This document shows, in pieces, positions 20,581 to 47,153 of a DNA stretch of 64,000 nucleotides. The notes beneath the pieces are model-generated. The model was not told where the DNA came from. It did not search any database and saw nothing but the letters and a program-made list of their open reading frames with translations. Origin of the DNA: Haliotis cracherodii (lineage: Eukaryota). The stretch spans positions 59,148,001 through 59,212,000 of the forward strand of contig NW_027266275.1 of assembly GCF_022045235.1 (NCBI RefSeq), read 5' to 3'. Position 1 is the first letter of the stretch. Every line of letters begins with the position of its first letter. A program made the translations under genes and the position numbers.

Positions 20581-22433
20581 AAGATATGCTACTACAACTG
20601 CGACAGTGATTTGCATGACAATATATATTTACACATCAAAGTGACCGTATCGCTAGCTCTCCGTTGGGCTTCGATGACAGCACGTGGATCCGTACAACCA
20701 ATGTAAACAAAGGATAACTACGCAAAAACAAGTAGATTTTCACGTATTAGGATACTTTCTTAATGAACCGTAACCATTCTTTGACATTTGTTAATGAAAA
20801 TGTGTAGATTTGTCAAACATGAAACGGATGAAAAGCATATGCAATATGTTGAATGGACTGTGAAAGATGTGACGAATCGTCACAGTCATGGCGCTTGCCT
20901 GTGGCAGAGGTACCATGATGGTCGCATGGAACTCTGTGTAGGAGAGTGACAAAAGATAGATGCGTAGAGAAAGCGAGGAACCAGCCTATGTGAACGATGA
21001 GGACGTCATTGTATTATTCATTCGTGACCAGCTCGTGCTATTCCAGGACAAGTCGTATTTTCGCAAATGACATTCATCGATAGTGGGACGAGTCTTCTTG
21101 CGGGTTACGGAAAGGTGGATTTTTGTGTTGCACTTATGGAACGGGCAGTCCTCTATACAGTCCTGCTAGACAGGATTCCAGCTCCCTTGTTTTCAACACA
21201 GATAGAGTGCATGTGGAGCTGTTGATGGACTGAACGCAAATATGAAATTAGGCAGAGATGTAGAAATATAATTTGCTCATGACATAAGCAGATATGCAGG
21301 GATTGTGCGTACACTAGTCATACCCTGCACTCCACGTAAACAATTATGTGTATTTATTATATGCAACTGATGTTGAGAATGTCTGCACAGGAAGTCATGA
21401 ATTTATACTGCAAAAATGTGCAACAAAATAATTTGTGCGACGAAAGTAAGGTAACAAAAAACTAATCTGCCTACAGTCCGAATGGCATGGCATAATATTA
21501 GTTTATTGGTAAAGCCATGATATCAATCACAGGATTGTCTGGTCCAGACTCGATTATTTACAGACCGCCGTCATACACTTGGAATATTGTTGAGTGCGGC
21601 GTAAAATGCAACAACAAACAAACCATGTTATGGCGCCAGAAAATCTCGAAATATCACGAGTATTTGTTTTTCATCTGGAATCCTTGTATGATATCCACTT
21701 TTGATGAAATAAAGTAAATATTTATGATTTGTAGCCAGTCAGAGGTGTAAAGATTTAAATCCTACAGTGCGCATTGACGGACTTTCTTTCCGGACGATCT
21801 GTGGTCCTCTGTGGTGAATACCTGATATAAGACGATGGACTGATGATGATGCGCGGTAACGGCAGCTATGGATTCTTGCTACGCATGTGGTGGTTATAAT
21901 TGATTGTCCGTCAAACATGTTTCATGGTCGGTGGGCTCAAAGGCTCCCTGTACAAAGACAACACCGCTCTATCATGACGAGAACGTAGGTCAGCCGTGGA
22001 AGAGCTATACATCTGCAGACCCGTGGGATTCTGGGTAAAAATATAGGTCTCCAGCAACCTACATATGTTTGTTGTAAGAGACGACTCGATGGGTAGGGTA
22101 GTCACTGGTCAGACTCGCAGACTTGGTTGATTGCATTGTCGTATCCCAAATGCGCAGATCGGTGCTCATGATGTCAATCACTGGCTTGTCTGGTCCAGAC
22201 TCGATCATTTACAGACCGACGTCATATAGCTGGAATGTGTTCGGCCTTAAACAAAAAACAAACATGCTGGAGGTAACATCTGTGACCCTCCTGGGTGCCA
22301 TGCAATGCAATAATCATGGCGAGTCAAATATTCCAGAATTTGGAAGGACGTATGCTCTTTCTAGAGGCAACTGCACATGCACTGTAACCCCGACTTTCGG
22401 TCGACAGATGGCAGAAATAGGGCAGGACATGAA

Positions 22434-22645
22434 ATAATTCAAACCCGTTAGCCCTAGTGACGTGATCGTTTACAATAATTCCAACCCGTTAGCCCTAGTG
22501 ACCTGATCGTTTACAATGATTCCCACCCGTTAGCCCCAGTGACGTGATCGTTTACAATAATTCCAACCCGTTAGCCCCAGTGACGTGATCGTTTGCAATA
22601 ATTCCAACCCGTTAGCCCTAGTGAAGTGATAGTTTACAATAATTC
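22434..22645. repeat. 41-bp tandem repeat, 5 units
   Basis: Unit ATAATTCCAACCCGTTAGCCCCAGTGACGTGATCGTTTACA; only a single unit at the paralogous site (~6201-6247). Confidence 0.9.
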
Positions 22646-29085: not shown

Positions 29086-29300
29086 AGTGTGATTCAAGAA
29101 TATGTGTGACATTAAGGGGTGATTGTCATATTTGTGTGACATCAAGGAGATGATTGTCTTGTTTGTGTGTGACATCGAGGGGGTGATTGTTATGTTTGTG
29201 TGCGACATCACAGGATGATCATCATGTTTGTGTTTGTCACCAAGGGATGATTGTCATGTTTGGTAAATATATGTGTGTTGAGGGGATGAATGTTGTAGAT

Positions 29301-29997
29301 GTTGACATACTTGTAGTGGGGAGAATCCATGATTGTGTGACATGTTTATGTTGACATACTTGTAGTGGGGAGTATCAGTGATCGTGTGACATGTTTATGT
29401 TGACATACGTGTAGTGGGGAGTATCAGTGATCGTGTGACATGTTTATGTTGACATACGTGTAGTGGGGAGTATCAGTGGTCGTGTGACATGTTTATGTTG
29501 ACATACATGTAGTGGGGAGTATCAGTGATCGTGTGACATGTTTATGTTGACATACATGTAGTGGGGAGTATCAGTGATCGTGTGACATGTTTATGTTGAC
29601 ATACATGTAGTGGGGAGTATCAGTGGTCGTGTGACATGTTTATGTTGACATACGTTTAGTGGGGAGTATCAGTGATTGTGTGACATGTTTATGTTGACAT
29701 ACGTGTAGTGGGGAGTATCAGTGATCGTGTGACATGTTTATGTTGACATTCGTGTAGTGGGGAGTATCAGTGATCGTGTGACATGTTTATGTTGACATAC
29801 TTGTAGTGGGGAGAATCCATGATCGTGTGACATCTTTATGTTGACATACGTGTAGTTGGGAGCATCAGTGATCGTGTGACATGTTTATGTTGACATATGT
29901 GTAGTTGGGAGTATCAGTGATCGTGTGACATGTTTATGTTGACATACGTGTAGTGGGGAGTATCAGTGGTCGTGTGACATGTTTATGTTGACATACA
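29301..29997. repeat. 49-bp minisatellite, ~14 units, just downstream of the MZB1-like stop codon
   Basis: Unit GTTGACATACGTGTAGTGGGGAGTATCAGTGATCGTGTGACATGTTTAT; preceded by degenerate ~30-bp TGTGTGACATC repeats (29103-29270). Confidence 0.95.
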
Positions 29998-32900: not shown

Positions 32901-33781
32901 AGTGATTAGAGACAAACCATTATGTATCAGTACTGAATGAGATGTACATATTTATATTTGATACTTTATGTTATATATACATGTTAAACAGATATATATA
33001 TGAAATCTAGATGTATAGTTCAGGATCTTTTAAGTTATAGAATCTCTATGACTGAGAAAGAATCGGATGTTTGATGTTCATATATTCAATTGTTAATGCG
33101 AGAAAAGGTGTTTTTTAAACATTCAATGCTACAATGAATTTGGAAATTACTTGATTTTGACTGGTCAATCAGAGGTTTCAAACCACAGTTACCACAACTG
33201 ATGATTTGAGGAATGCCTCAAAGCGGAAGCTAATATACAAAGAAATTCCTCAATAATTTTGGTAGGCATTTTGAATTAATATGTACAGATTTAACTGTGC
33301 TAAATTTATGATTTGAAACTTCTGCATGATTACATAGTATGTTTATGTCTTAAGTATATGTGCCCTTCAAACAAAATTCAAACATCATAACAATTTCTTC
33401 AAAAATGAGTTTGTACAAGTTATTTTATTGTGGCAATCCATAGCAAATTCTTAAGATTGTATTTGAACTCTTGTTGCTGTATATCATCAGGTCTTATTGA
33501 CAAATTCTTAATAAATTGAAAATAAATTGTTAAACAGTTTGTGTTCTTTGTTTTCAAAGGGAATAGTGTTGCCATTATCACCTGTCCTGTAGAATATCTG
33601 TCTGAATCAATACAATTAGCAGTTGGTAGGCCATGGTGTTCTGTATCATTGTCGGTAATAGGACAACGTTGTTGTAATCAAAGGCTCCATGACACAGCCA
33701 ACTCTGCTGTATCATGACGACAACCGTGTCTAGGTCAGCAATATAAGAGCTACATGTATACTACTGCAGCCTGGAACACCC

Positions 33782-36300
33782 AACCAGCAGTCATAGTCAG
33801 CGACATCAGAGCTATACCACTACAGCCTTGACTAACCAGCAGTCATAGTCAGCGACATCAGAGCTATACCACTACAGCCTTGACCAACCAGCAGTCATAG
33901 TCAGCGACATCAGAGCTATACCACTGCAGCCTTGACCAACCAGCAGTCATAGTCAGCGACATCAGAGCTATACCACTACAGCCTTGACCAACCAGCAGTC
34001 ATAGTCAGCGACATCAGAGCTATACCACTACAGCCTTGACCAACCAGCAGTCATAGTCAGCGACATCAGAGCTATACCACTACAGCCTTGACTAACCAGC
34101 AGTCATAGTCAGCGACATCAGAGCTATACCACTACAGCCTTGACCAACCAGCAGTCATAGTCAGCGACATCAGAGCTATACCACTGCAGCCTGGACCAAC
34201 CAACCAACCAGCAGTCATAGTCAGCGACATCAGAGCTATACCACTACAGCCTTGACTAACCAGCAGTCATAGTCAGCGACATCAGAGTTATACCACTACA
34301 GCCTTGACCAACCAGCAGTCATAGTCAGCGACATCAGAGCTATACCACTACAGCCTTGACCAACCAGCAGTCATAGTCAGCGACATCAGAGCTATACCAC
34401 TACAGCCTTGACCAACCAGCAGTCATAGTCAGCGGCATCAGAGCTATACCACTACAGCCTTGACCGACCAACAGACCAACCAGCAGTCATAGTCAGCGAC
34501 ATCAGAGCTATACCACTACAGCCTTGACCAACCAGCAGTCATAGTCAGCGACATCAGAGCTATACCACTACAGCCTTGACCAACCAGCAGTCATAGTCAG
34601 CGACATAAGAGCTATACCACTGCAGCCTTGACGAACCAGCAGTCATAGTCTGCAACATAAGAGCTATACCACTTCAGCCTTGACCAACCAACCAACCAGC
34701 AGTCATAGTCAGCGAAATAAGAGTTATACCACTGCAGCCTTGACCAACCAACCAGCAGTCATAGTCAGCAACATAAGAGCTATACCACTTCAGCCTTGAC
34801 CAACCAACCAACCAGCAGTCATAGTCAGCGACATTAGAGCTATACCACTACAGCCTTGACCAACCAACAGACCAACCAGCAGTCATAGTCAGCAACATAA
34901 GAGCTATACCACTTCAGCCTTGACCAACCAACCAGCAGTCATAGTCAGTAACATAACAGCTATACCACTTCAGCCTTGACCAACCAACCAACCAGCAGTC
35001 ATAGTCAGCGAAATAAGAGTTATACCACTGCAGCCTTGACCAACCAACCAACCAGCAGTCATAGTCAGCGGCATCAGAGCTATACCACTACAGCCTTGAC
35101 CGACCAACAGACCAACCAGCAGTCATAGTCAGCGACATCAGAGCTATACCACTACAGCCTTGACCAACCAGCAGTCATAGTCAGCGACATCAGAGCTATA
35201 CCACTACAGCCTTGACTAACCAGCAGTCATAGTCAGCGACATCAGAGCTATACCACTACAGCCTTGACCAACCAGCAGTCATAGTCAGCGACATCAGAGC
35301 TATACCACTGCAGCCTGGACCAACCAACCAACCAGCAGTCATAGTCAGCGACATCAGAGCTATACCACTACAGCCTTGACTAACCAGCAGTCATAGTCAG
35401 CGACATCAGAGTTATACCACTACAGCCTTGACCAACCAGCAGTCATAGTCAGCGACATCAGAGCTATACCACTACAGCCTTGACCAACCAGCAGTCATAG
35501 TCAGCGACATCAGAGCTATACCACTACAGCCTTGACCAACCAGCAGTCATAGTCAGCGGCATCAGAGCTATACCACTACAGCCTTGACCGACCAACAGAC
35601 CAACCAGCAGTCATAGTCAGCGACATCAGAGCTATACCACTACAGCCTTGACCAACCAGCAGTCATAGTCAGCGACATCAGAGCTATACCACTACAGCCT
35701 TGACCAACCAGCAGTCATAGTCAGCGACATAAGAGCTATACCACTGCAGCCTTGACGAACCAGCAGTCATAGTCAGCAACATAAGAGCTATACCACTTCA
35801 GCCTTGACCAACCAACCAACCAGCAGTCATAGTCAGCGAAATAAGAGTTATACCACTGCAGCCTTGACCAACCAACCAGCAGTCATAGTCAGCAACATAA
35901 GAGCTATACCACTTCAGCCTTGACCAACCAACCAACCAGCAGTCATAGTCAGCGACATTAGAGCTATACCACTACAGCCTTGACCAACCAACAGACCAAC
36001 CAGCAGTCATAGTCAGCAACATAAGAGCTATACCACTTCAGCCTTGACCAACCAACCAGCAGTCATAGTCAGTAACATAACAGCTATACCACTTCAGCCT
36101 TGACCAACCAACCAACCAGCAGTCATAGTCAGCGAAATAAGAGTTATACCACTGCAGCCTTGACCAACCAACCAACCAGCAGTCATAGTCAGCGACATTA
36201 GAGCTATACCACTACAGCCTTGACCAACCAACAGACCAACCAGCAGTCATTGTCGGCAACATAAGAGCTATACCACTGCAGCCTTGACCAACCAACCAGA
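33782..36300. repeat. 52-bp minisatellite with variable (ACCA)n and a 1124-bp higher-order duplication
   Basis: Unit AACCAGCAGTCATAGTCAGCGACATCAGAGCTATACCACTACAGCCTTGACC. Diagnostic variants recur 1124 nt apart (CTGGACC at 34191 and 35315; AGCGGC at 34431 and 35555). Confidence 0.95.
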
Positions 36301-37260
36301 AGTCACTGGTCAATAGTGAGAGTATCTAAATGTTAATTTCTAGGTGGTTCTCATCCCAGTTGCAAGTGGAATGGAATTTGTAGTGAAATCTTTAGCCACT
36401 AAATAAGCAAAGAATAATGTAGCCTGGTTCATGTGATAAGACAGAAACTAGTGTCATTTATTTAATTACATATTACTGGCATGAACCTATCTGAACACCA
36501 TTGTGTTGCTGTTTCTCAAAGGATTATAAAAGATCTTTTATATCAATTTGCTTATACGACATTTTAACACCATCAATAGTCAGACTCATCTTAGATCTTT
36601 CAGATATGAGGGGCGATTGGGTAGCCTAGTGGTTAAAGTGTTCTCTCGTCACGCTGAAGACCCGGGTTTGATTCCCGACATGGGTGCAATGTGTAAAGCC
36701 CATTTCTGGTGTCCCCTGCCGTGATATTTCTGGAATATTGCTTAAAGCTGTGTAAAACCATACTCACTCAATTTCAGATACAAAGAAGTTAACAAGAAAG
36801 CAAAACATCACAATCAAAGAGTTTAATATCATATTCATTACCTGAGTAGACATGGTAGAAGATGATATTTCTGAAACCATCACACGGAATACAGTATTCT
36901 AAATATATATTCAGAATAACATAACTTGTATATAAAGTATAATGTAAATCACTCATCACTTTAATAACAAGACATCATCCCTTTACAACATTCTGATTGT
37001 AGAAGAATGTCACGCAGACCTCAATGGGGAGGTGTTCCTGTTGCCATGACCTGTCTGAGAACCATGGCTTCTGTCAGCCTTCAGATAGATCTTGGTAACA
37101 GGGAGTGGAGCTGTGTTCCAAAGGCAGGCAGTATGCTGCTGCCATGGTATTCATCCCATATGCTGCACACAACTCTGGTCACATTTATCTGCATATATTC
37201 CGGCCTAATACTGTACACACTTCACTAGGACAATCCACACATCTCCAGCTTCAGCCTGTG

Positions 37261-40200
37261 TTATAAGCTACTGTTGATGCACTTTGTAACAGCTTGTACA
37301 GTTGCCTCAGCAGAATCTAGGGCCCCAGAGAAGTTTCCTTTCTGAGCAAATGCATCCCCAGCGAGGATGACTAGAGGCTTGGTCTCCAGCACCACACAGC
37401 CTGGGGAACCTTCATACTGCTGGAATACCTGTAACATAGGGCCAAACCTGTAACATAGTATCACCTGTAACATAAGGTCACCAGTAACATAGGGTCACAC
37501 CTGTATCTAGGGAACACCTGTAACTGGGGAACACCTGTAACTGGGGAACACCTGGAACAAGGTCACACCTTTAACTGGGGAACACCTGTAACATAGGGTC
37601 ACACCTGTAACAGGGTCACACCTGTAACTGGGGAACACCTGTAACATAGGGTCACACCTGTCACTGCGGAACACCTGTAACTTGGGAACACCTGGAACAG
37701 GGTCACACCTTTAACTGGGGAACACCTGTAGCATAGGGTCACACCTGTCACTGGGGAACACCTGTAACTTGGGAACACCTGGAACAGGGTCACACCTTTA
37801 ACTGGGGAACACCTTTAAATGGGGAACACCTGTAACATAGGGTCACACCTGTCACTGGGGAACACCTGTAACTTGGGAACACCTCGAACAGGGTCACACC
37901 TTTAACTGGGAACACCAGTAACATAGGGTCACACCTGTAACTGGGGAACACCTGGAACAGGGTCACACCTGTAACTGGGGAACACCTGTAACATAGGATC
38001 ACACCTGTAACATAGGGTCACACCTGTAACATAGGGTCACACCTGTAACAGGGTCACACCTGTAACTGGGGAACACCTGTAACATAGGATCACACCTGTA
38101 ACATAGGGTCACACCTGTAACATAGGGTCACACCTGTAACAGGGTCACACCTGTAACTGGGGAACACCTGTAACATAGGGTCACACCTGTAACTGGGGAA
38201 CACCTGTAACTTGGGAACACCTGGAACAGGGTCACACCTTTAACTGGGGAACACCTGTAACATAGGGTCACACCTTTAACTGGGGAACACCTGTAACTGG
38301 GGAACACCTGGAACAGGGTCACACCTGTAACTGGGGAACACCTGTAACATAGGATCACACCTGTAACATAGGGTCACACCTGTAACATAGGGTCACACCT
38401 GTAACAGGGTCACACCTGTAACTGGGGAACACCTGTAACATAGGATCACACCTGTAACATAGGGTCACACCTGTAACATAGGGTCACACCTGTAACAGGG
38501 TCACACCTGTAACTGGGGAACACCTGTAACATAGGGTCACACCTGTAACTGGGGAACACCTGTAACTTGGGAACACCTGGAACAGGGTCACACCTTTAAC
38601 TGGGGAACACCTGTAACATAGGGTCACACCTTTAACTGGGGAACACCTGTAACTTGGGAACACCTGGAACAGGGTCACACCTGTAACTGGGGAACACCTG
38701 TAACATAGGGTCACACCTGTAACACAGGGTCACACCTGTAACTGGGGAACACCTGTAACTGGGGAACACCTGGAACAAGGTCACACATGTAACTGGGGAA
38801 CACCTGTAAGTGATGTAAATTAGTGCATCGTGAAGATGGGCATGAGGCATATGAACAAATGGGCAAATTTGGCTCCAATTTCGTACATTTCTCTCCAAAT
38901 TTGACTCTTTTAATTTATTTTTCTACATTTTATATAATATATATATTACCCATTTCAAAATTGTTTTTCTTATACGTGATCAAAATACATTTCCTCCTTG
39001 TTCTAACCACGAAACTACGCGCTAAATAAATATCGTGGATATTATACACGCACCATTCTGATTCAGACACATTTAGTGTAACAAGACGGATGTTCTGATT
39101 GAACATTTTAGTCAGGCATCGTTTACCTCCCTTTATTGACTTGTTGACCAGTCACTTGTACACGCGGTTCGCACAGTTTCGAAGAAAGTAAACATGTTTC
39201 AACGCGATGGCAAATGGGTGTGCGTTAGTGTGCGTGAAATAATTCATATATTTTGTAACTCTACGATGAATAAGCTTTTAGAAAATACTACATGTAAGTT
39301 TCTGAAAAATATGTACACAGGAGAAAATTGCTGTAAAAACAGAACATTTTGCTCAATTTTTGCACATTTTTCTCCAAATTTGACTGTTTATTATTTTTCT
39401 TCTGACATTTTTTTCATGTCATACGATAACTAGTATGATGATCAATGACTCTACGTAATTTTGTTTCATTATTTTCACAAATAACACTTGTAGAGACATT
39501 TGTGTGCAAGAAATCCATGGTCCACTGACAGACCGTCACGCATACGAGTGACCCCTCTCAGGTGGACACGATTCCAGGTCCTTGAGTGTGTCGAAAAAGT
39601 GAATTACACAGTGGAAAAGCTATGTGGAAGTAATCATAACACGTTGGGTGAGAGGGGATCCAAGGTCAAAATTTATAATAAGGCCTCTCACGCTGGAGCT
39701 GACATTGGGAATAGGTAGCACAGATTGGTCACTACTTTGTGTGATCCTTATGTGTTTACATACACATCACTATGATATTGCTAAAACCATTTCTGGCTGT
39801 TGCATTCAACATCATTCACCCACTCGTTCATCAGTACTCTGGATCTTCACAGGTCGCTTACCTGTGAATACCTCCACTTGTGACTTTTAACGACCTCTGG
39901 CTCGGGTAGATCAGGTAGGATGTCACGCAGGTGCTGCATGATCAGGGGCTTCATAGCCTCCTTGTCTGTCTCCAAGTGCTGGAGGCTGAAGGGCACGCTG
40001 GTGTGGACTAGCACCGACGGGGGCACATCTGAGGCAGATCACACCAGTGTCAAAACAAACCTCCAAGCTATATCACTATGTTGTCATTCCAAAAGGGGAA
40101 TCAGGTACAGTGCTATATTACCCATAGGAACAATCTCATTAAAATCATACAGAGATATATCATATGGGAGATAAAGATTTGATTGAGACTGTCCATTGGA

Positions 40201-43200
40201 GGATCAATAGAGGAGGAATAATGTCAGTAATTACATGTATTATTATACCGTAATTATAATTTTGGCTTTATGCTGATTGGCTGGTTTGTCCCAATTGTTG
40301 TACTGTTTGCAAAGAAGCTCATAGCAACGTGATGCCATACAAATACATTGTTGCAAATAACACAAGATAGTCATCCATTGTTCACGATCTCACACTTTTC
40401 CACATTTTCTCAGAAAATCGTCTTCCCAAGGCAAGGGAGATAACTGTGAAAGTCAAGCTTCCACCATTGCCGAACTAGGCTGAAATTTCTGTGCTTGATC
40501 ATAGCGCCACCACTGGCCTTTATGAGTTATGTCTCTTCTATGTCCCTCCTATTGACCAATCAGATTCCATCTCTCACATCACTTGCATTTGTTTAAAAAA
40601 AAATGGCGGGGCTAAGGCAAGACAATCTGAACAAATGAACCGAAATCAGTAAGGCATTTATAAAATAGATGTCGATTTTGATTTTGATTGGACTATGCAC
40701 AGACTTGTTAGTCAAGCCAAAATATACCTCCATAATTCCGGCCAAGGTTGGCAAGTGTGGAAACTGTACTTTTATAGTCAATTAACACCCTTGCCTGAGG
40801 AGATGCAGCAAATAGACTGTGGGCAATATGTTGATAAACTGACTCCAAACTCGGCATCACAGATTATCTTTTCCCCCCAAGACTTTGAAAATTAATTCAT
40901 TCTAGACCGATGATCATAACTCCTTCTTGTTCATAATATTCTCAAATCGTCTGAGTACACACTGGTTTCCTTCTCACTGGGACCAGGCCAAGACACGATG
41001 CACTGGGTAAAAATAGTGACTGCACTAAACACTGAGCGTTTTGTCATGGGTGATGGGATGAACGTAGTGTATTCCAACCAGGTAAGTACAGATGATGCAC
41101 AGTTGTAGGTTATTCTATAAATAGTTTACCACGCAATCCTCGTTTCCTGTTATCTATGGCCACAAATCGTATACAGGGACCATCAAAGAAGTACTTGGCA
41201 TCCCACTGGAAGGGCAGCTGTGTTCCTGGTGGGTAGAAGAGACCCAGACAGAACCGTGAAGAGTACGACACCTTCTCCAGACACGCCCTCACACTGGACT
41301 GGCCAGCTGAAATAAATACAACATGCAGCTGTTCAGCTTTCAACAGCGAGTGACAGAATGAAGTTTTATGTGGGAACTTCGGTTTGCCCCCTTGGTTTTT
41401 CCCTCTCCCCAGGGCATGCTCTGTCTACCAAAACCTCATGAGCGTGTTTTCTCCAATACTTAGCAATATTCCAGCAATATCACGATGGGGGGACACCAGA
41501 AATGGGCTTCACACATTGTACCCATGTCGGGATTCAAACCCGGGTCTTCGGCGCGACGACAGAACGCTTTAACCACTAGCGTACCCCACTGCCCCCATAG
41601 TAAAACCACCTGCCCCCAATGCCAAATTTAGAAGACATGGGACCATTTCTGGGTTACACTTCCTTCCGTGGCTCACAGCTGAGAACGTATGACCTATGGA
41701 ATAGGAATATGGTACCCCTAATCCTAGTCTCCCCTTATGAATAGTCAACTTCTTCCCCTGTATCTGCCACACTCTGACAACACTCCAGAAAAGGGTAAAC
41801 CTAACCTCATAAATTGTATGAAAGAGTTGAGGGATGAAAACAGCAGAATTGTATGGTTTTAATTGCATGATGAGAAGGAATATACACTTTGTTACACCTG
41901 TGCATCTATACACTGGATAAGTGAGTTTGTTTTAATGCCGCTTTGAACAGTATGGAGCACATCAGCTCGATATTGGCGGAATTGTCTTAGACTTTGGGGA
42001 AACCAAAAATCATGGTAATGGTGCTGACCAACCTGGAAACAATCCAGGGATTACAAAAATAATAATTAGGGATTCAAACCCATTATCATAGGTTTCTGAC
42101 ACACCTAAGGGATGCAACTCTGCACAGTTAATCGTGGCTCCTTGAACAACTTGGCCACCAGAGTTCCCTACATTGGATCAACAGCCCACAGATAAAATTA
42201 TAAGAAAACAGATGTCAAACTCTCAACAAACATTTCCTGTAAGTAGTCACTTACCTATACTTCGCTGTATGGCCCCTTTGAGCTGGAGAATCTGGGGTAC
42301 TGGCATGGTCAGTATAACAGCATCAAACTCCTGACTGGTGCCTGCCTGAGTTGTCACCTGGACCGCTTGACAATCTCCTGACTTGAAGTCCACCTGAGAT
42401 ATGTGGTGCTCATACTTGGCCTCAGCCCCTTGTACACAAAAACATCAGTCTTATCCACTGGGTACGACCCCTAAATACATGTGTGTTTCTGGCTAAGTGA
42501 CTGACCCTAATCCCTGGCCCTTCTTTGGGATTTTTCTCAATAATACTATCACTATAGATCCTCCAGTCACTGTCTTCATTTGAAAGCTGGCTTTGTCTGC
42601 CATACACCAAATTACGGTTGACGAAAGAAATAAGGTTTAAAAACCCCTCTCATAAACCCCCTACACCATATTTTGAAGGGCTGAAATTGGAAACACATAT
42701 AATTTTGTTGGCCAAAATGTATAGAACGGTTTATTGAAAGTAATATTAATTCTGGCTGCTTTAAAATGATTTATGTCCTTTTTTCCTGTATGTGCTGTGA
42801 ACCTGGCAACATATCCAGATTAAAATGCATCAAGTTTTCAATGTAAGTGACACTCATTCTTCACTGGCATTGATTTCATAGTACTGTAGCTTAATAGCTG
42901 TAATACATATTCATTTGATGAGCTGGGGTAAGAGGAGATGGCAATGTCACTGTTGACCTTCCAGTGCCTCATGGTTAGCTTGGGTTGTACAAGGACATAA
43001 ATTACCTGATTTAGCGAGGTAGTGTTTGACGAGAGATCCGCTTCCTGCTGGCGTCACATAATGCCGGCAGTCGACGGAGTTGTCTCCCTCTAACACGCCC
43101 TTGAAGGGTTTAACTACTCCAGCAGACTCCAGCTCATCAAACAGACTGCAACAGAGAGGACGATGGTTATTTGTTGTCATTTGTACACTCTTCAGCAATG

Positions 43201-46200
43201 AAGACTGATATTACAATGCTGCAATTGGACATTGAGGAAAATTGACAGTTTTCATTTATTTCATTTATTCTGGTGCATTTGCCCTATGTTTCAAATAATT
43301 ACAGCTCATTTTATTATTTCTGCTTCACCGATTCTTCAGATTCTTGATTATATATTAAGGTGTCTTTTTTTATTTTTTCTGTTTGCAGATTCAGCTGAAA
43401 TGAGCTGCAATCACAAAAAAAAAAAATGTAGTATATAATCCTTTTTTAGAGAAAAATGTATCTGTAAATCAACAAAACAAAAGTAGTCCATGTGAATCAA
43501 CCTTTGTCTCTTGGTCTTGTATTGTGGTGTCAAGGTGAAGTACTGAGCTCCCAAGTCGACAGTACAAGTGTCATCTCCTGGCTTTCGCGATGTTGACATG
43601 CGACCTCCTGTAAAAATGATTGTCAATAATAAACAATGAGGTGAGGTGAAATTGGGTTTAACGTCGCGTCCAAGATTATTGCACTTATATAGCGACGTGC
43701 ATGGATGTGTATGTGTGTGTGTGGCTGCTTGTACTAGTCTAGACTGATGCCGATTTATAGTGCTAGCACACTGAGATACCATGCCGCAGTTTAACATGAA
43801 TACCCCACTCAGACACAGTATACTGACTACGAGCCGACCAGCCCTTTAATGCTGTGCGCCAGACAGGGTAACAACAAGTACCATCTTTTAACGTCTTTTG
43901 GTATGATGCAGCCGTGGATCGAACCTGGGACCTTCCACTCTCCGGGCGGACGCTCTACCACTAGACCACGGAGGCGGTCTAATAAACAATGACATCGCTG
44001 AATAACCCCACAAAAGATTTCCACCCACTCAAAAATGTTTAACTCTTGTCCAAAGAGCATGATGAAATTTGAAGAGATGAAACATGATAAGAGTATATTT
44101 GGCTCCATAGATGAACCATGAGGTGAGGTGAGGTGAGGTGATGTGAGGTGAGGTGATGTGAGGTGAGGTGAGGTGAGGTGAGGTGAGGTGAGGTGAGGTG
44201 AGGTGAGACAATTCTGTATTGCCCAGAATTCTCTTACATCAGAGCATCACGAAACATAATACAAGAAAAAAACTGGAATAAAAGAGGTCTGGGATCATTT
44301 CCATTTAACTTTTGGAGTGAGATATCTTTGCCCAGATGGGAAATCAGAAAAACAAGGGTTTAAGATGTTAGAACTAAGGTAATGTTCCACAAACTCAGCC
44401 AGCCTTTTGGAGGCATGTTCATATTTTGAGTTAAAACATGGCCACAAGTCTGCTCATCCCAAAAGTTGAAAAAAACATTGAATGAACATGTATACATATA
44501 ACATTTAGCATGTAGGCTAGTTCAGGTGGTTGGATTTACATTATTGTGTGTGTAGCGGCCATAAAATTTCCGAGTCCGGTAATGGGATTCGAACCACGGA
44601 CCTTCTGATCCGAGGTCGGACGCCTTGTCCACATGACCAAAGAGGTTAACCCTGTCAGCAAGCTGACAAGGTAAGGATGTCATCTGTGGGATGACTCCAC
44701 GCCCTGCTACACACTCCCTCGTCAATGGAAGGCATGTCCTGGGCTGCATAGTTGGGTAGTGAGGCTTACTTTGCTCAAATTTAATATGAACGTGCTCTGC
44801 CCAACGTTGGGTGCCAATGTAACGGCCATCAAATTTCCGAGTCCCGTGATGGGATTCGAACCACAGACCTTCTGATCCGAGGTCGTACGCCTTGTCGACA
44901 TGAACATAGAGGTTAACCCTGTCAGCAAGCTGACAAAGTAAGGATGTCATCTGTGGGATGACTCCACACCCTGCCACATGTGTATCCCTGTATTACATAG
45001 GTAATCAAACAGCCATATTGGCTCGGGCCCCAAAACTGATTTTTGTGTGTTTCTGTTGTCCTAAACCTTTTCACTTGGTTTTGGCCTCAGCAAAATAGTT
45101 ATTAGATAGACAAAAGTATGAGGAGATCCTACAGAACAGAAATCAATTTAAAACCAGATTCCAAAATTAGAGCCACAAAGCTCTGCAGGTCACCTGAGTT
45201 TTTTTCTTTTCTGATCAGAAAGGTCATACAAATAGAAAAGGAGCATAATTAAAAGAAGTCTTTACACAACAGACATTGTCGTGTGCGCTTATTAGTGCGG
45301 GGCGGTTATTACGTCGAATATGGTAATACGTGACTAACTGGCTATACAGAGAGCATGAATAGCATATTCATCAGGACTGTCATGGCACTATATTGGCTGC
45401 CACAAGGACACATGTAAAGATGAAAAGATTGTGTCAATTAAATCTCACAGTAACTAGCAACATGTTATTGGGCATACATTAGACTAATATCTGGTCTCTG
45501 GAATGAATATATTTTAAAGAAAAAAACAACAGTTGTTAAATTATAGTTATGAAATTTTCATTTTCAGATGATAGTATGACACAGTAGTAATTTAGACTTG
45601 CCAAACATTACAGACTTGCACGGGCTGTATTGGATATATTTATTTCAGGGTCTGTTTAATCAGAGATATGGTCTCTGGTTTAATAGATTAGGCATAACTC
45701 ACACTTACTGGATATCAAATTTCAAAACAATCTGCACATAAATGATTGAGTAATAGGCAAGAATTACAATTTTAATATCGCTGTCCAGATCGATGTTTAA
45801 ATCAGATCTGATAAAGTTTACCATGGACACGCTTCAAACAATAGATTACCAGGTGAACCATAATCCATGACAGTTCTGCAACTGTTGGTTTATAACTATA
45901 TTTGATCACCTGATTAGGTATGGTAAAATCAGTTTCAAACATGCATGTCCCTTGTGATAAATGATTGCAGGACTCAATGCCCAGGTGTACTGTCAACGAG
46001 TTTATTCACGGAGTGTGGGTGCAATATAAGAGTGAATATTCTCCTACCCTATTTTTTTTATCCCAGTGATGAAATTCTCTCGTGTCAGGATGATTCTCCC
46101 TAGGGAATTTGAACCCATACCAGTGTGTTTAATCCTATCCTATACTATACTCTAGAGTAAAACTTCTCCTGGGATAATATTTAGGTAGGATAGAATCCTT

Positions 46201-46451
46201 GCTTACACAAGCACCTGCCAGTAACGACATTCGATCACGTTTACCTATTACATCACATCATATTCCTACGTTCTGGATAATGATCATAATTATCATGTCT
46301 TGTTCATTAGGGAGGAACCGTGCTGCTGCTAACCTGCCCCATGAGACTTGTCCCACAATGTGATCGTCGCGTCCTCAGGTAGTTCCTGACGCAACGCAGC
46401 CGCGGTTGCCGCTCCTGTGATGCCTGTGCCTGCAACCAACACCCGCGCCAT
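37261..46451 (-). CDS. RNLS: Renalase (FAD-dependent oxidase), 349 aa; exons 46451-46334, 43607-43502, 43145-43006, 42428-42255, 41306-41130, 40028-39862, 37428-37261
   Basis: N-terminal Rossmann motif VLVAGTGITG; WDKSHGAGGRMSTSR; DLGAQYFT; FDAVILTMPVPQIL; VSYSSRFCLGLFY; HKWRYSQV; LAGDAF. All six introns GT-AG with consistent phases. Confidence 0.93.
37429..38808. repeat. Complex minisatellite built from splice-junction-like modules, abutting the last renalase exon
   Basis: On the - strand, shuffled modules CTATGTTACAG/GTGTTCCCCAGTTACAG/GTGTGACC resemble the real junction CTATGTTACAG|GTATTCCAGCAG. Confidence 0.9.
40445..40830. mobile_element. Diverged long-TIR MITE related to 15464-16050
   Basis: Shares TTGCCGAACTAGGCTG, TAGCGCCACCA and AGTCAATTAACAC-CTTGCCT motifs with that element. 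Confidence 0.6.
43637..43979 (-). mobile_element. tRNA-derived SINE (8382 family)
   Basis: Reverse complement begins GACCGCCTCCGTGGTCTAGTGGTAGAGCGTCCGCC; (CACCT)n tail. Confidence 0.85.
44119..44206. repeat. (GAGGT)n pentanucleotide microsatellite
   Basis: Read directly; same motif as the tail of the neighbouring SINE. Confidence 0.95.
44551..44978 (-). mobile_element. Complete miniature LTR retrotransposon (TRIM) with a tRNA-Arg-derived segment in both LTRs
   Basis: Two 161-bp TGT...ACA direct repeats (44551-44711, 44818-44978), 106-bp internal region, tRNA-Lys-like PBS TGGCACCCAACGTTGGGC, PPT GACGAGGGAGTG, and 4-bp TSD TGTG. Confidence 0.88.
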
Positions 46452-47153
46452 GGTGTGTCGGAGCATCGATTTGATCGAGGTCAAATTCCTTATCTCCCTG
46501 AAACAGTCTCACGTGTGATCGTGACAGAGAGAGCAAAACTCAAACAAAGCAAGGGAGGTAACTCTAAATTACTATTTCTCCCTACTACACAAGAGAGCTT
46601 CGATGGTCGCCGGATCTAGGAGTGATACCCGAAAGATCTTACCCGAAAGAACCCAGAGCTTTGGGTCTTAAATGTGACATTAGTTTTAAAACAGATTGCT
46701 CGAAACATTGTACATTATTCGTGAAAAATATGATTTAATATATTCACGAATTCGATTCTAGATCTCTCTGGGTAATATGTACACTCTTTTCGGGAAAAAG
46801 GAAAACATGCGAAGGCGAACCCCCACTTGCACAGAAAACCAAGAACAACCACTGACCACTTAGACAGAACAAGCTGCTACGATGATATGTCAATGAGCCA
46901 CCACTCACCTGCTGAAGCTTAGGTCTCTGTAATGTATTGAAGCGCTTGTAAAATGCAACATTGAGCAATGCAATCCGGAAGAAAAACTTAGAAAAAAACA
47001 GCTCCACCTCATTTAGCTCCCGTGCACAAGATGACCTTGCAATGGGAACATTTTAAACATAGGTGCGATTCATAATCATTTCGTAAAAATGTTTATTATC
47101 TTATGATTTTTATAATGGTAATCATCCCAGAAAAATGTTCAGACCAATATCTA

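What the first reader, a model, noticed from the sequence alone, without database searches (positions are those of the whole stretch)
37420..38825. A 1.4-kb minisatellite made of splice-acceptor copies in front of the last renalase exon
Seen on the - strand: the distal end reads CTAATTTACATCACTTACAG|GTGTTCCCCAG, with a branch-point-like CTAAT and an acceptor at 38805-38804. Dozens of CAG|GT junctions follow (roughly one every 15-25 nt), each resembling the true junction TGTTACAG|GTATTCCAGCAG at 37430/37428. Use of the distal AG would give VFPSYMCDLVPG...LQV* and lose the C-terminal LAGDAF segment. Inference: the intron/exon boundary itself was tandemly amplified. The spliceosome must skip many decoys or remove the array stepwise through AG|GT sites (recursive splicing, or intron creation by tandem duplication). 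Array length could modulate functional renalase output.
Basis: partly seen in the sequence, partly recalled or inferred. Interest (0 to 1): 0.7.

Follow-up and report, generated by a model that had tools for sequence, protein, structure and literature searches.

The report
Splice-acceptor minisatellite in abalone renalase
The last intron of an abalone enzyme gene (renalase) ends in 78 head-to-tail copies of a short piece resembling its own splice signal, yet the assembled transcripts join only at the last, genuine copy, so it is likely a harmless repeat of a kind already described in lancelets and in a human gene.

Summary
A 1,375-nt array of 78 units (16-19 nt; window 38803-37429, - strand) fills 57% of the last intron of abalone renalase and carries 65 decoy CAG|GT sites. 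Its units were found nowhere else in the genome, so it is not a dispersed satellite. Unit A joins the intron's last 6 nt to a 9-mer from the exon start, which is the signature of a duplicated junction; the likely original acceptor is stranded at 38804. Contigs from four RNA runs (four organisms) join donor 39862 to the last acceptor, 37428 (two listed directly, two inferred), and array units lie in runs of all four organisms. This matches amphioxus 'mirages' and human CBS 844ins68. It is not intron creation, and it lacks the donor consensus and intron length of recursive splicing. Rare decoy use and length effects are untested. Similar splice-motif arrays are common in this genome: motif triplets are 3-5 times more frequent than reversed controls for two of three motifs, and 6 of 26 arrays versus 0 of 13 controls abut Pfam-supported exons (p=0.07). 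The scan has reported this class before at other loci of this genome. Verdict: new member of a known kind.

The parts
37429..38803 (-). Minisatellite of 78 units: 37 type A (17 nt), 25 type B (19 nt), 16 type b (17 nt, 3 differences from A); units at the exon-proximal end are more degenerate
38804..38843 (-). Stranded distal acceptor, likely the original intron end: CTAAT at 38823-38819, 67 nt free of AG, CAG at 38806-38804; shares exactly TTACAG with the units
   Evidence: matched in organism B DNA (X6 piece 38783-38863); original status is inferred
37429..37430 (-). Acceptor AG that is actually used (last copy)
   Evidence: spliced contigs X14 and X15 listed, X12 and X13 inferred; loose end of X15
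37261..37428 (-). Coding part of the last renalase exon (VFQQYEGSPG...GDAF...SSL*)
   Evidence: single copy in the genome
37401..37409 (-). Exon +20..+28 9-mer identical to positions 3-11 of unit A
   Evidence: 3 of 3118 control 40-nt windows share a 9-mer with unit A
37465..37466 (-). The only decoy AG whose use would stay in frame and open (12 extra residues)
   Evidence: of 111 AGs, only this decoy and the true site read through to the true stop
37931..38654 (-). Perfect 356-nt higher-order duplication inside the array (368 identical positions)
   Evidence: TRF period 356
39862..40028 (-). Renalase exon 6; donor CAG|GTAAGC at 39862/39861
41130..46466 (-). Renalase coding exons 1-5 (46466-46334, 43607-43502, 43145-43006, 42428-42255, 41306-41130)
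   Evidence: tblastn with P0001; boundaries read

Best explanation
The array is a locus-specific minisatellite likely born by tandem duplication of the renalase intron-6/exon-7 junction, and the assembled transcripts splice across all of it to the last copy, so it is likely a tolerated passenger. Inferred history: a short segment covering the intron's last 6 nt and the exon's first ~28 nt was duplicated and then shortened by slippage between two TTCC words that lie 17 nt apart in the exon head. It was amplified and homogenised by slippage or unequal exchange (91- and 356-nt higher-order blocks). This left the original branch point and AG stranded 1,375 nt upstream and only the last copy attached to an intact exon. 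Inferred mechanism of choice: terminal-exon definition (exonic signals and 3'-end coupling), not local acceptor strength, picks the last AG. Transcripts made at almost any decoy would lose the C-terminal GDAF segment, so selection would keep decoy use low.
For: Shown: unit A = GT + exon(+20..+28) 9-mer + intron-tail TTACAG; the 9-mer match has a null rate of 3 of 3118; the unique upstream flank ends in exactly that 6-mer. The TTCC words are at exon +4 and +21, one unit length apart. Unit patterns occur only at this locus: 4 of 4, 16 of 16 and 16 of 16 genome matches. Spliced contigs join 39862 to 37428 with no extra letters: X14 record 18 and X15 record 24 are listed; X12 record 7 and X13 record 11 follow from record lengths, depths and end distances; the X15 loose end is the exon-6 tail. 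Array units lie in DNA runs of organisms A, B and C and in the RNA run of D. The distal site has the highest pyrimidine fraction of the 66 CAG|GT sites (0.69 versus 0.62 at the used site), a CTAAT at -17 like two other renalase acceptors (-16, -17), and 67 AG-free nt versus 17, yet it is not the one used. RefSeq proteins of three Haliotis species all read WRYSQ-VFQQY. Precedent: mirages do not disturb splicing (PMC3087553, PMC3902484); in CBS 844ins68, a duplicated intron/exon junction, splicing strongly favours the downstream site (PMC2630376).
Against: Units B and b (41 of 78) share only 5 nt with the exon head, which is chance level; their junction origin rests on b being 3 changes from A. 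No array-free orthologous intron was seen, so the ancestral state is inferred. The 9-mer test was chosen after looking at the sequence. Contigs drop rare variants and the output tables were cut, so low-level decoy use cannot be excluded. The array has persisted across organisms that differ by about 4% in the exon and UTR, and its exon-proximal 92 nt differ by only 1 letter in organism C (Poisson p=0.08), which could reflect constraint. Exon definition was not tested here.
Confidence: 0.8

Rival explanations
1. Regulated or length-dependent decoy: the stranded distal acceptor or the in-frame decoy at 37465 is used in some tissues or alleles, so array length tunes the share of full-length renalase mRNA.
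For: The distal site looks like the best local acceptor and is matched in organism B. One decoy is in frame. The array is retained in four organisms. A recent perfect 356-nt duplication shows that length changes.
Against: The four spliced contigs use the last AG. The five Haliotis RefSeq proteins read (P0001-P0003, P0013, P0014) all have the normal last exon; the shorter H. rufescens isoform X2 lacks an internal exon instead. Mirages are reported not to give aberrant mRNAs.
Confidence: 0.08
2. Recursive (stepwise) removal: donor 39862 first joins an AG|GT in or before the array, the regenerated GT acts as donor, and a second step reaches 37428.
For: There are 65 decoy CAG|GT juxtapositions, 30 of them CAG|GTGTGA. 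A clean exon-exon join is what recursive splicing would also leave. One real renalase donor is weak (GTTGAT).
Against: None of the 111 AGs is followed by GTAAG or GTRAG, whereas the fly consensus is (Y)nNCAG|GTAAGT and the process is described for very long introns (PMC5126111). This intron is 2,433 nt. The distal site would regenerate only GTGTTC.
Confidence: 0.05
3. The array is an intronic minisatellite that arose next to the acceptor from purely intronic sequence, and its likeness to the exon head is coincidence.
For: Units B and b do not resemble the exon beyond chance. The last unit before the exon is B-like. Some other motif arrays abut an acceptor or lie about 85 nt from one without clearly copying the exon (L049, L035).
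Against: Unit A has a 9-mer exon match (3 of 3118) directly followed by the intron-tail 6-mer, and the first unit behind the stranded acceptor is type A. It is not dispersed.
Confidence: 0.06
4. Intron creation by tandem duplication of an exonic AGGT segment.
For: The junction is an AG|GT proto-splice site, and the mechanism is documented (PMC3443670).
Against: The donor lies 1,058 nt upstream of the array in unique sequence. Genomic ORFs of distant renalases (P0004, P0005, P0007, P0009) leave the coding alignment right after WRYSQV, so the intron predates the array. No listed contig treats the array as a separate intron.
Confidence: 0.01

Closest known systems
Amphioxus 'mirage' minisatellites (globin BflGb6 acceptor-side; Adh3, troponin C, PGBD5). 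PMC3087553 passages and PMC3902484 passage; the original Adh3 paper was not held
   Same: Tandem repeats spanning an intron-exon boundary; many but not all units keep AG/GT; regular splicing is undisturbed; cluster ends escape homogenisation; the 17-19 nt unit is within the 10-72 bp range given for Adh3.
   Different: Mollusc rather than cephalochordate; 78 units versus 3-6 in BflGb6; much of the exon-derived sequence has eroded; higher-order structure; shared by four organisms. Somatic and allelic instability not tested here.
[quoted passage not shown] PMC2630376 passages
   Same: A duplicated junction in which splicing strongly favours the downstream site and gives normal mRNA; a VNTR whose unit spans an exon end plus intron bases.
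   Different: ins68 has two copies, not 78; the 31-bp VNTR is on the donor side.
Recursive splice sites (fly ratchet points, vertebrate RS-sites). Review PMC5126111 passages
   Same: AG|GT juxtapositions inside an intron.
   Different: No GTAAGT-like donor, a short intron, and dozens of sites 17-19 nt apart instead of isolated conserved sites.
Intron gain by tandem genomic duplication. Review PMC3443670 passages
   Same: Duplication around an AG|GT site.
   Different: No new intron was made; an old intron was lengthened.

Membership tests
Mirage (junction-spanning minisatellite) | Tandem array abutting an exon-intron boundary | tested here: met
   The array ends at the used AG 37429
Mirage (junction-spanning minisatellite) | Unit contains both intronic and exonic sequence of that boundary | tested here: met
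   Unit A: 6 nt intron tail + GT + exon 9-mer, null 3 of 3118; units B and b carry only the intron tail and GT
Mirage (junction-spanning minisatellite) | Many units keep AG/GT signals | tested here: met
   65 decoy CAG|GT among 78 units
Mirage (junction-spanning minisatellite) | Locus-specific, not dispersed | tested here: met
   All exact matches of three unit patterns lie in this array (the tool notes that counts are lower bounds)
Mirage (junction-spanning minisatellite) | Regular splicing preserved | tested here: met
   4 of 4 RNA-run contigs join 39862 to 37428 (2 listed, 2 inferred); major form only
Mirage (junction-spanning minisatellite) | Length instability between alleles or cells | tested here: inconclusive
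   A perfect 356-nt internal duplication implies a recent change; contigs cannot give array length
Recursive splice site | Acceptor immediately followed by a consensus donor (GTAAGT-like) | tested here: not met
   0 of 111 AGs followed by GTRAG; the review notes non-canonical human RS donors exist
Recursive splice site | Very long intron | tested here: not met
   2,433 nt
Recursive splice site | Intermediates or saw-tooth nascent RNA | not testable with these tools
   Only assembled contigs were available for RNA
Intron gained by tandem duplication | Intron absent in relatives and bounded by duplicated AGGT | tested here: not met
   Same intron position in distant renalase ORFs; donor outside the array

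The most novel reading that the evidence does not exclude
The original acceptor stranded at 38804 is still engaged by the spliceosome, as a hidden first step or a competing dead end, so array length sets how much full-length renalase mRNA is made. If so, the likely hundreds of junction-built arrays in abalone would be a genome-wide layer of length-variable splicing rheostats.
Probability: 0.08. Interest if true: 0.65.

Novelty: new member of a known kind. Interest (0 to 1): 0.27.

Why it matters
As a single locus it is ordinary. It is still a clean natural test of 3' splice-site choice: an apparently stronger upstream acceptor and 64 further CAG|GT decoys are bypassed for the last one, the opposite of a first-AG scanning rule and what exon definition predicts (both models recalled). 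The class matters more than the locus. Splice-motif arrays are enriched in this genome, and the same renalase intron carries a donor-side repeat in another animal (P0004, P0005, P0007). This suggests mirages are common in molluscs rather than an amphioxus peculiarity. My one search for that found no paper, in a library that lacks most subscription journals. Such arrays can also mislead gene predictors and are candidate VNTR markers.

Tried and rejected
No RNA holder is on record and no raw RNA reads were offered; only contigs of guessed-RNA runs. X12, X13 and X14 have no cover in the array bins 37502-38837, and X15 has only short low-depth pieces there; absence in contigs is not evidence against rare isoforms. 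The joint, loose-end and piece tables were cut (106, 1495 and 23263 rows hidden; 8 loose ends and 72 pieces). An X15 loose end at 38743 may be another locus and was not interpreted. The distal boundary is not covered in X10. No renalase paralogue with an array-free acceptor exists in G000, and the distal flank is single copy. PDB searches for the exon-like frames beside L036 and L040 gave nothing significant. The Atlas did not answer. One fold of 37560-37380 was run without a shuffle control and is not used. The TTACAGGT triplet was only modestly above its control (187 versus 103). A Fisher test on a by-eye count of 9 of 26 (p=0.015) is not used, because those extra exons are unsupported by any database hit. 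The search for recursive splicing with four required terms returned 0 papers. A look-up of earlier findings by exon-6 sequence returned nothing. No supplements were read; Additional file 4 of PMC3087553 holds the BflGb6 alignment and could refine the comparison.

Full report
Observation. On the - strand, 38803-37429 is an array of 78 units: 37 type A (GTGTTCCCCAGTTACAG), 25 type B (GTGTGACCCTATGTTACAG) and 16 type b (17 nt, three changes from A). It holds 111 AGs, of which 66 are CAG|GT including the true acceptor; about 1.2 CAGGT would be expected from the rest of the window. Inner units are homogeneous, with a perfect 356-nt duplication and 91-nt blocks. Three of the last units next to the exon are more diverged. 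The array makes up 57% of a 2,433-nt intron.

Gene. Seven exons match 'renalase-like [Haliotis cracherodii]' (P0001) at 97-100%. Exon 6 matches human renalase 3qj4 at E=5.6e-12, and exon 7 matches it weakly at E=0.12. Exon 7 is single copy. Only one decoy, at 37465, reads in frame to the true stop (+12 aa); the other 109 decoy AGs do not reach the true stop in frame and would lose the GDAF segment. That this segment helps bind FAD is recalled, not tested.

Which acceptor is used. Four guessed-RNA runs from four organisms were laid. X14 record 18 and X15 record 24 run contiguously from exon 7 to exon 6 to exon 5 with no extra letters. For X12 record 7 and X13 record 11 only one side is listed, but the unlisted 130 and 69 letters fit the other exon by depth and end distance. 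The X15 loose end at the exon-7 edge is the exon-6 tail. The major mRNA therefore joins 39862 to 37428. Contigs drop rare variants and the tables were cut, so minor forms remain open. RefSeq proteins of three Haliotis species agree.

The array is shared. DNA run X1 (organism A) matches both ends without differences. X6 (B) covers 37100-37508 and has a contig that joins array units to the same distal flank. X10 (C) covers 37422-37513 with one difference and has internal units. X15 (D) has array-like pieces. The skipped array is thus present in organisms that differ by about 4% in exon 7 and its UTR.

Origin. Three unit patterns match only at this locus. Unit A consists of GT, a 9-mer identical to exon +20..+28, and the intron's last six bases; 3 of 3118 control windows share a 9-mer with it; the unique flank upstream ends in exactly those six bases. 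Two TTCC words in the exon head lie 17 nt apart, one unit length. I infer a junction duplication, a slippage deletion between these words, and then amplification. One indirect hint points the same way: in organism C the unitig starting at 37422 has twice the flank depth (76 versus 38), so a second copy of the proximal block shares seven exon-head letters. Units B and b resemble the exon only at chance level, and no array-free orthologue was available, so the history is inferred.

Mechanism of choice. The distal site has the highest pyrimidine fraction of the CAG|GT sites, a CTAAT at -17 as in two other renalase acceptors, and a 67-nt AG-free stretch. The used site has 0.62, a GTGAT at -33, and an AG 17 nt upstream. 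Local strength and first-AG scanning therefore do not explain the choice; definition of the terminal exon is the likely cause (inference from established splicing models, recalled). Recursive splicing is unlikely: no AG is followed by GTRAG and the intron is short, against the features in PMC5126111 (passages). Intron creation (PMC3443670, passages) is excluded: distant renalase ORFs leave the alignment at the same WRYSQV position.

A class, not a one-off. Triplets of splice motifs at short spacing give 721 matches versus 232 reversed controls for TTTCAGGT, 880 versus 183 for CAGGTAAG, and 187 versus 103 for TTACAGGT. Matches within an array are not independent. The listed places show 14 distinct TTTCAGGT arrays on C1-C3 and 12 CAGGTAAG arrays on C1-C2, which extrapolates to roughly 80-95 each genome-wide. 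I fetched 26 motif arrays (the 11 other arrays among the first 100 of 187 places, and the 15 among the first 100 of 721) and 13 reversed-motif arrays. I then scanned the 99 open frames of at least 32 aa crossing their ends against Pfam. Six of 26 abut a Pfam-matching exon: L056 ubiquitin, L057 SBF, L060 PR domain, L052 Sel1 (acceptor side); L049 ASC (acceptor, opposite strand); L041 Ig (donor, opposite strand). None of the 13 controls does (one-sided p=0.07; control L073 had no flank in the fetched stretch). Dropped rows: the L040 EF-hand hit (not abutting) and repeat- or proline-driven hits in L040, L041 and L055. Two of the six (L052, L049) are below Pfam's curated cut-off. The enrichment is suggestive, not proven.

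Known counterparts. [quoted passage not shown] Human CBS 844ins68 duplicates an intron/exon junction and splicing favours the downstream site (PMC2630376, passages). Other papers were seen only as search listings. Earlier notes of this scan reached the same class at three other places in this genome; they are AI notes, not independent support.

Verdict. Real, junction-derived, skipped in the major mRNA, and a new member of a known kind. Interest 0.27.

Noticed in passing
P0004, P0005, P0007 (unnamed JGI/ENA proteins, up to 95% identical to P0010 over the exon): Genomic ORFs of another animal's renalase run from exon 6 into tandem copies of the exon end (KSHKWRYSQV, then frame-shifted KSQVEIFS repeats): a donor-side mirage of the same intron, apparently independent of the abalone array.
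   Followed up: partly
L036:2513-3200 (G000:C1:84.36 Mb): A 19-nt acceptor array whose unit copies 12 nt of the following exon-like frame; the putative donor of that exon is also duplicated. No Pfam or PDB support.
   Followed up: partly
L056, L057, L060, L052 (G000:C2 and C4): Acceptor arrays directly before ubiquitin-like, bile-acid symporter, PR-domain and Sel1 exons.
   Followed up: partly
L035 (G000:C1:51.245 Mb): A 60-copy TTACAG|GT array ends about 85 nt before what looks like a real acceptor and a sugar-kinase-like exon (label recalled by eye).
   Followed up: no
window 38857-39569: A high-copy dispersed element with similar ends in opposite orientation sits in intron 6 about 55 nt upstream of the stranded acceptor (high depth in DNA runs).
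   Followed up: no
window 33780-36234, 29299-29996, 29103-29262, 22433-22645: Further minisatellites (periods 52, 49, 32, 41); their ends were printed but no exon link was tested.
   Followed up: partly
P0002, P0003: H. rufescens renalase isoform X2 lacks the 59-aa exon 5; H. asinina has a second, 150-aa renalase-like entry on a contig of the same length as the full one.
   Followed up: no
window 37426 (exon 7, third base): The splice joint is cut one base differently in X14 and X15 than in X12 and X13, hinting that organisms C and D carry another letter there, possibly the one in unit A; the letter is not shown.
   Followed up: no
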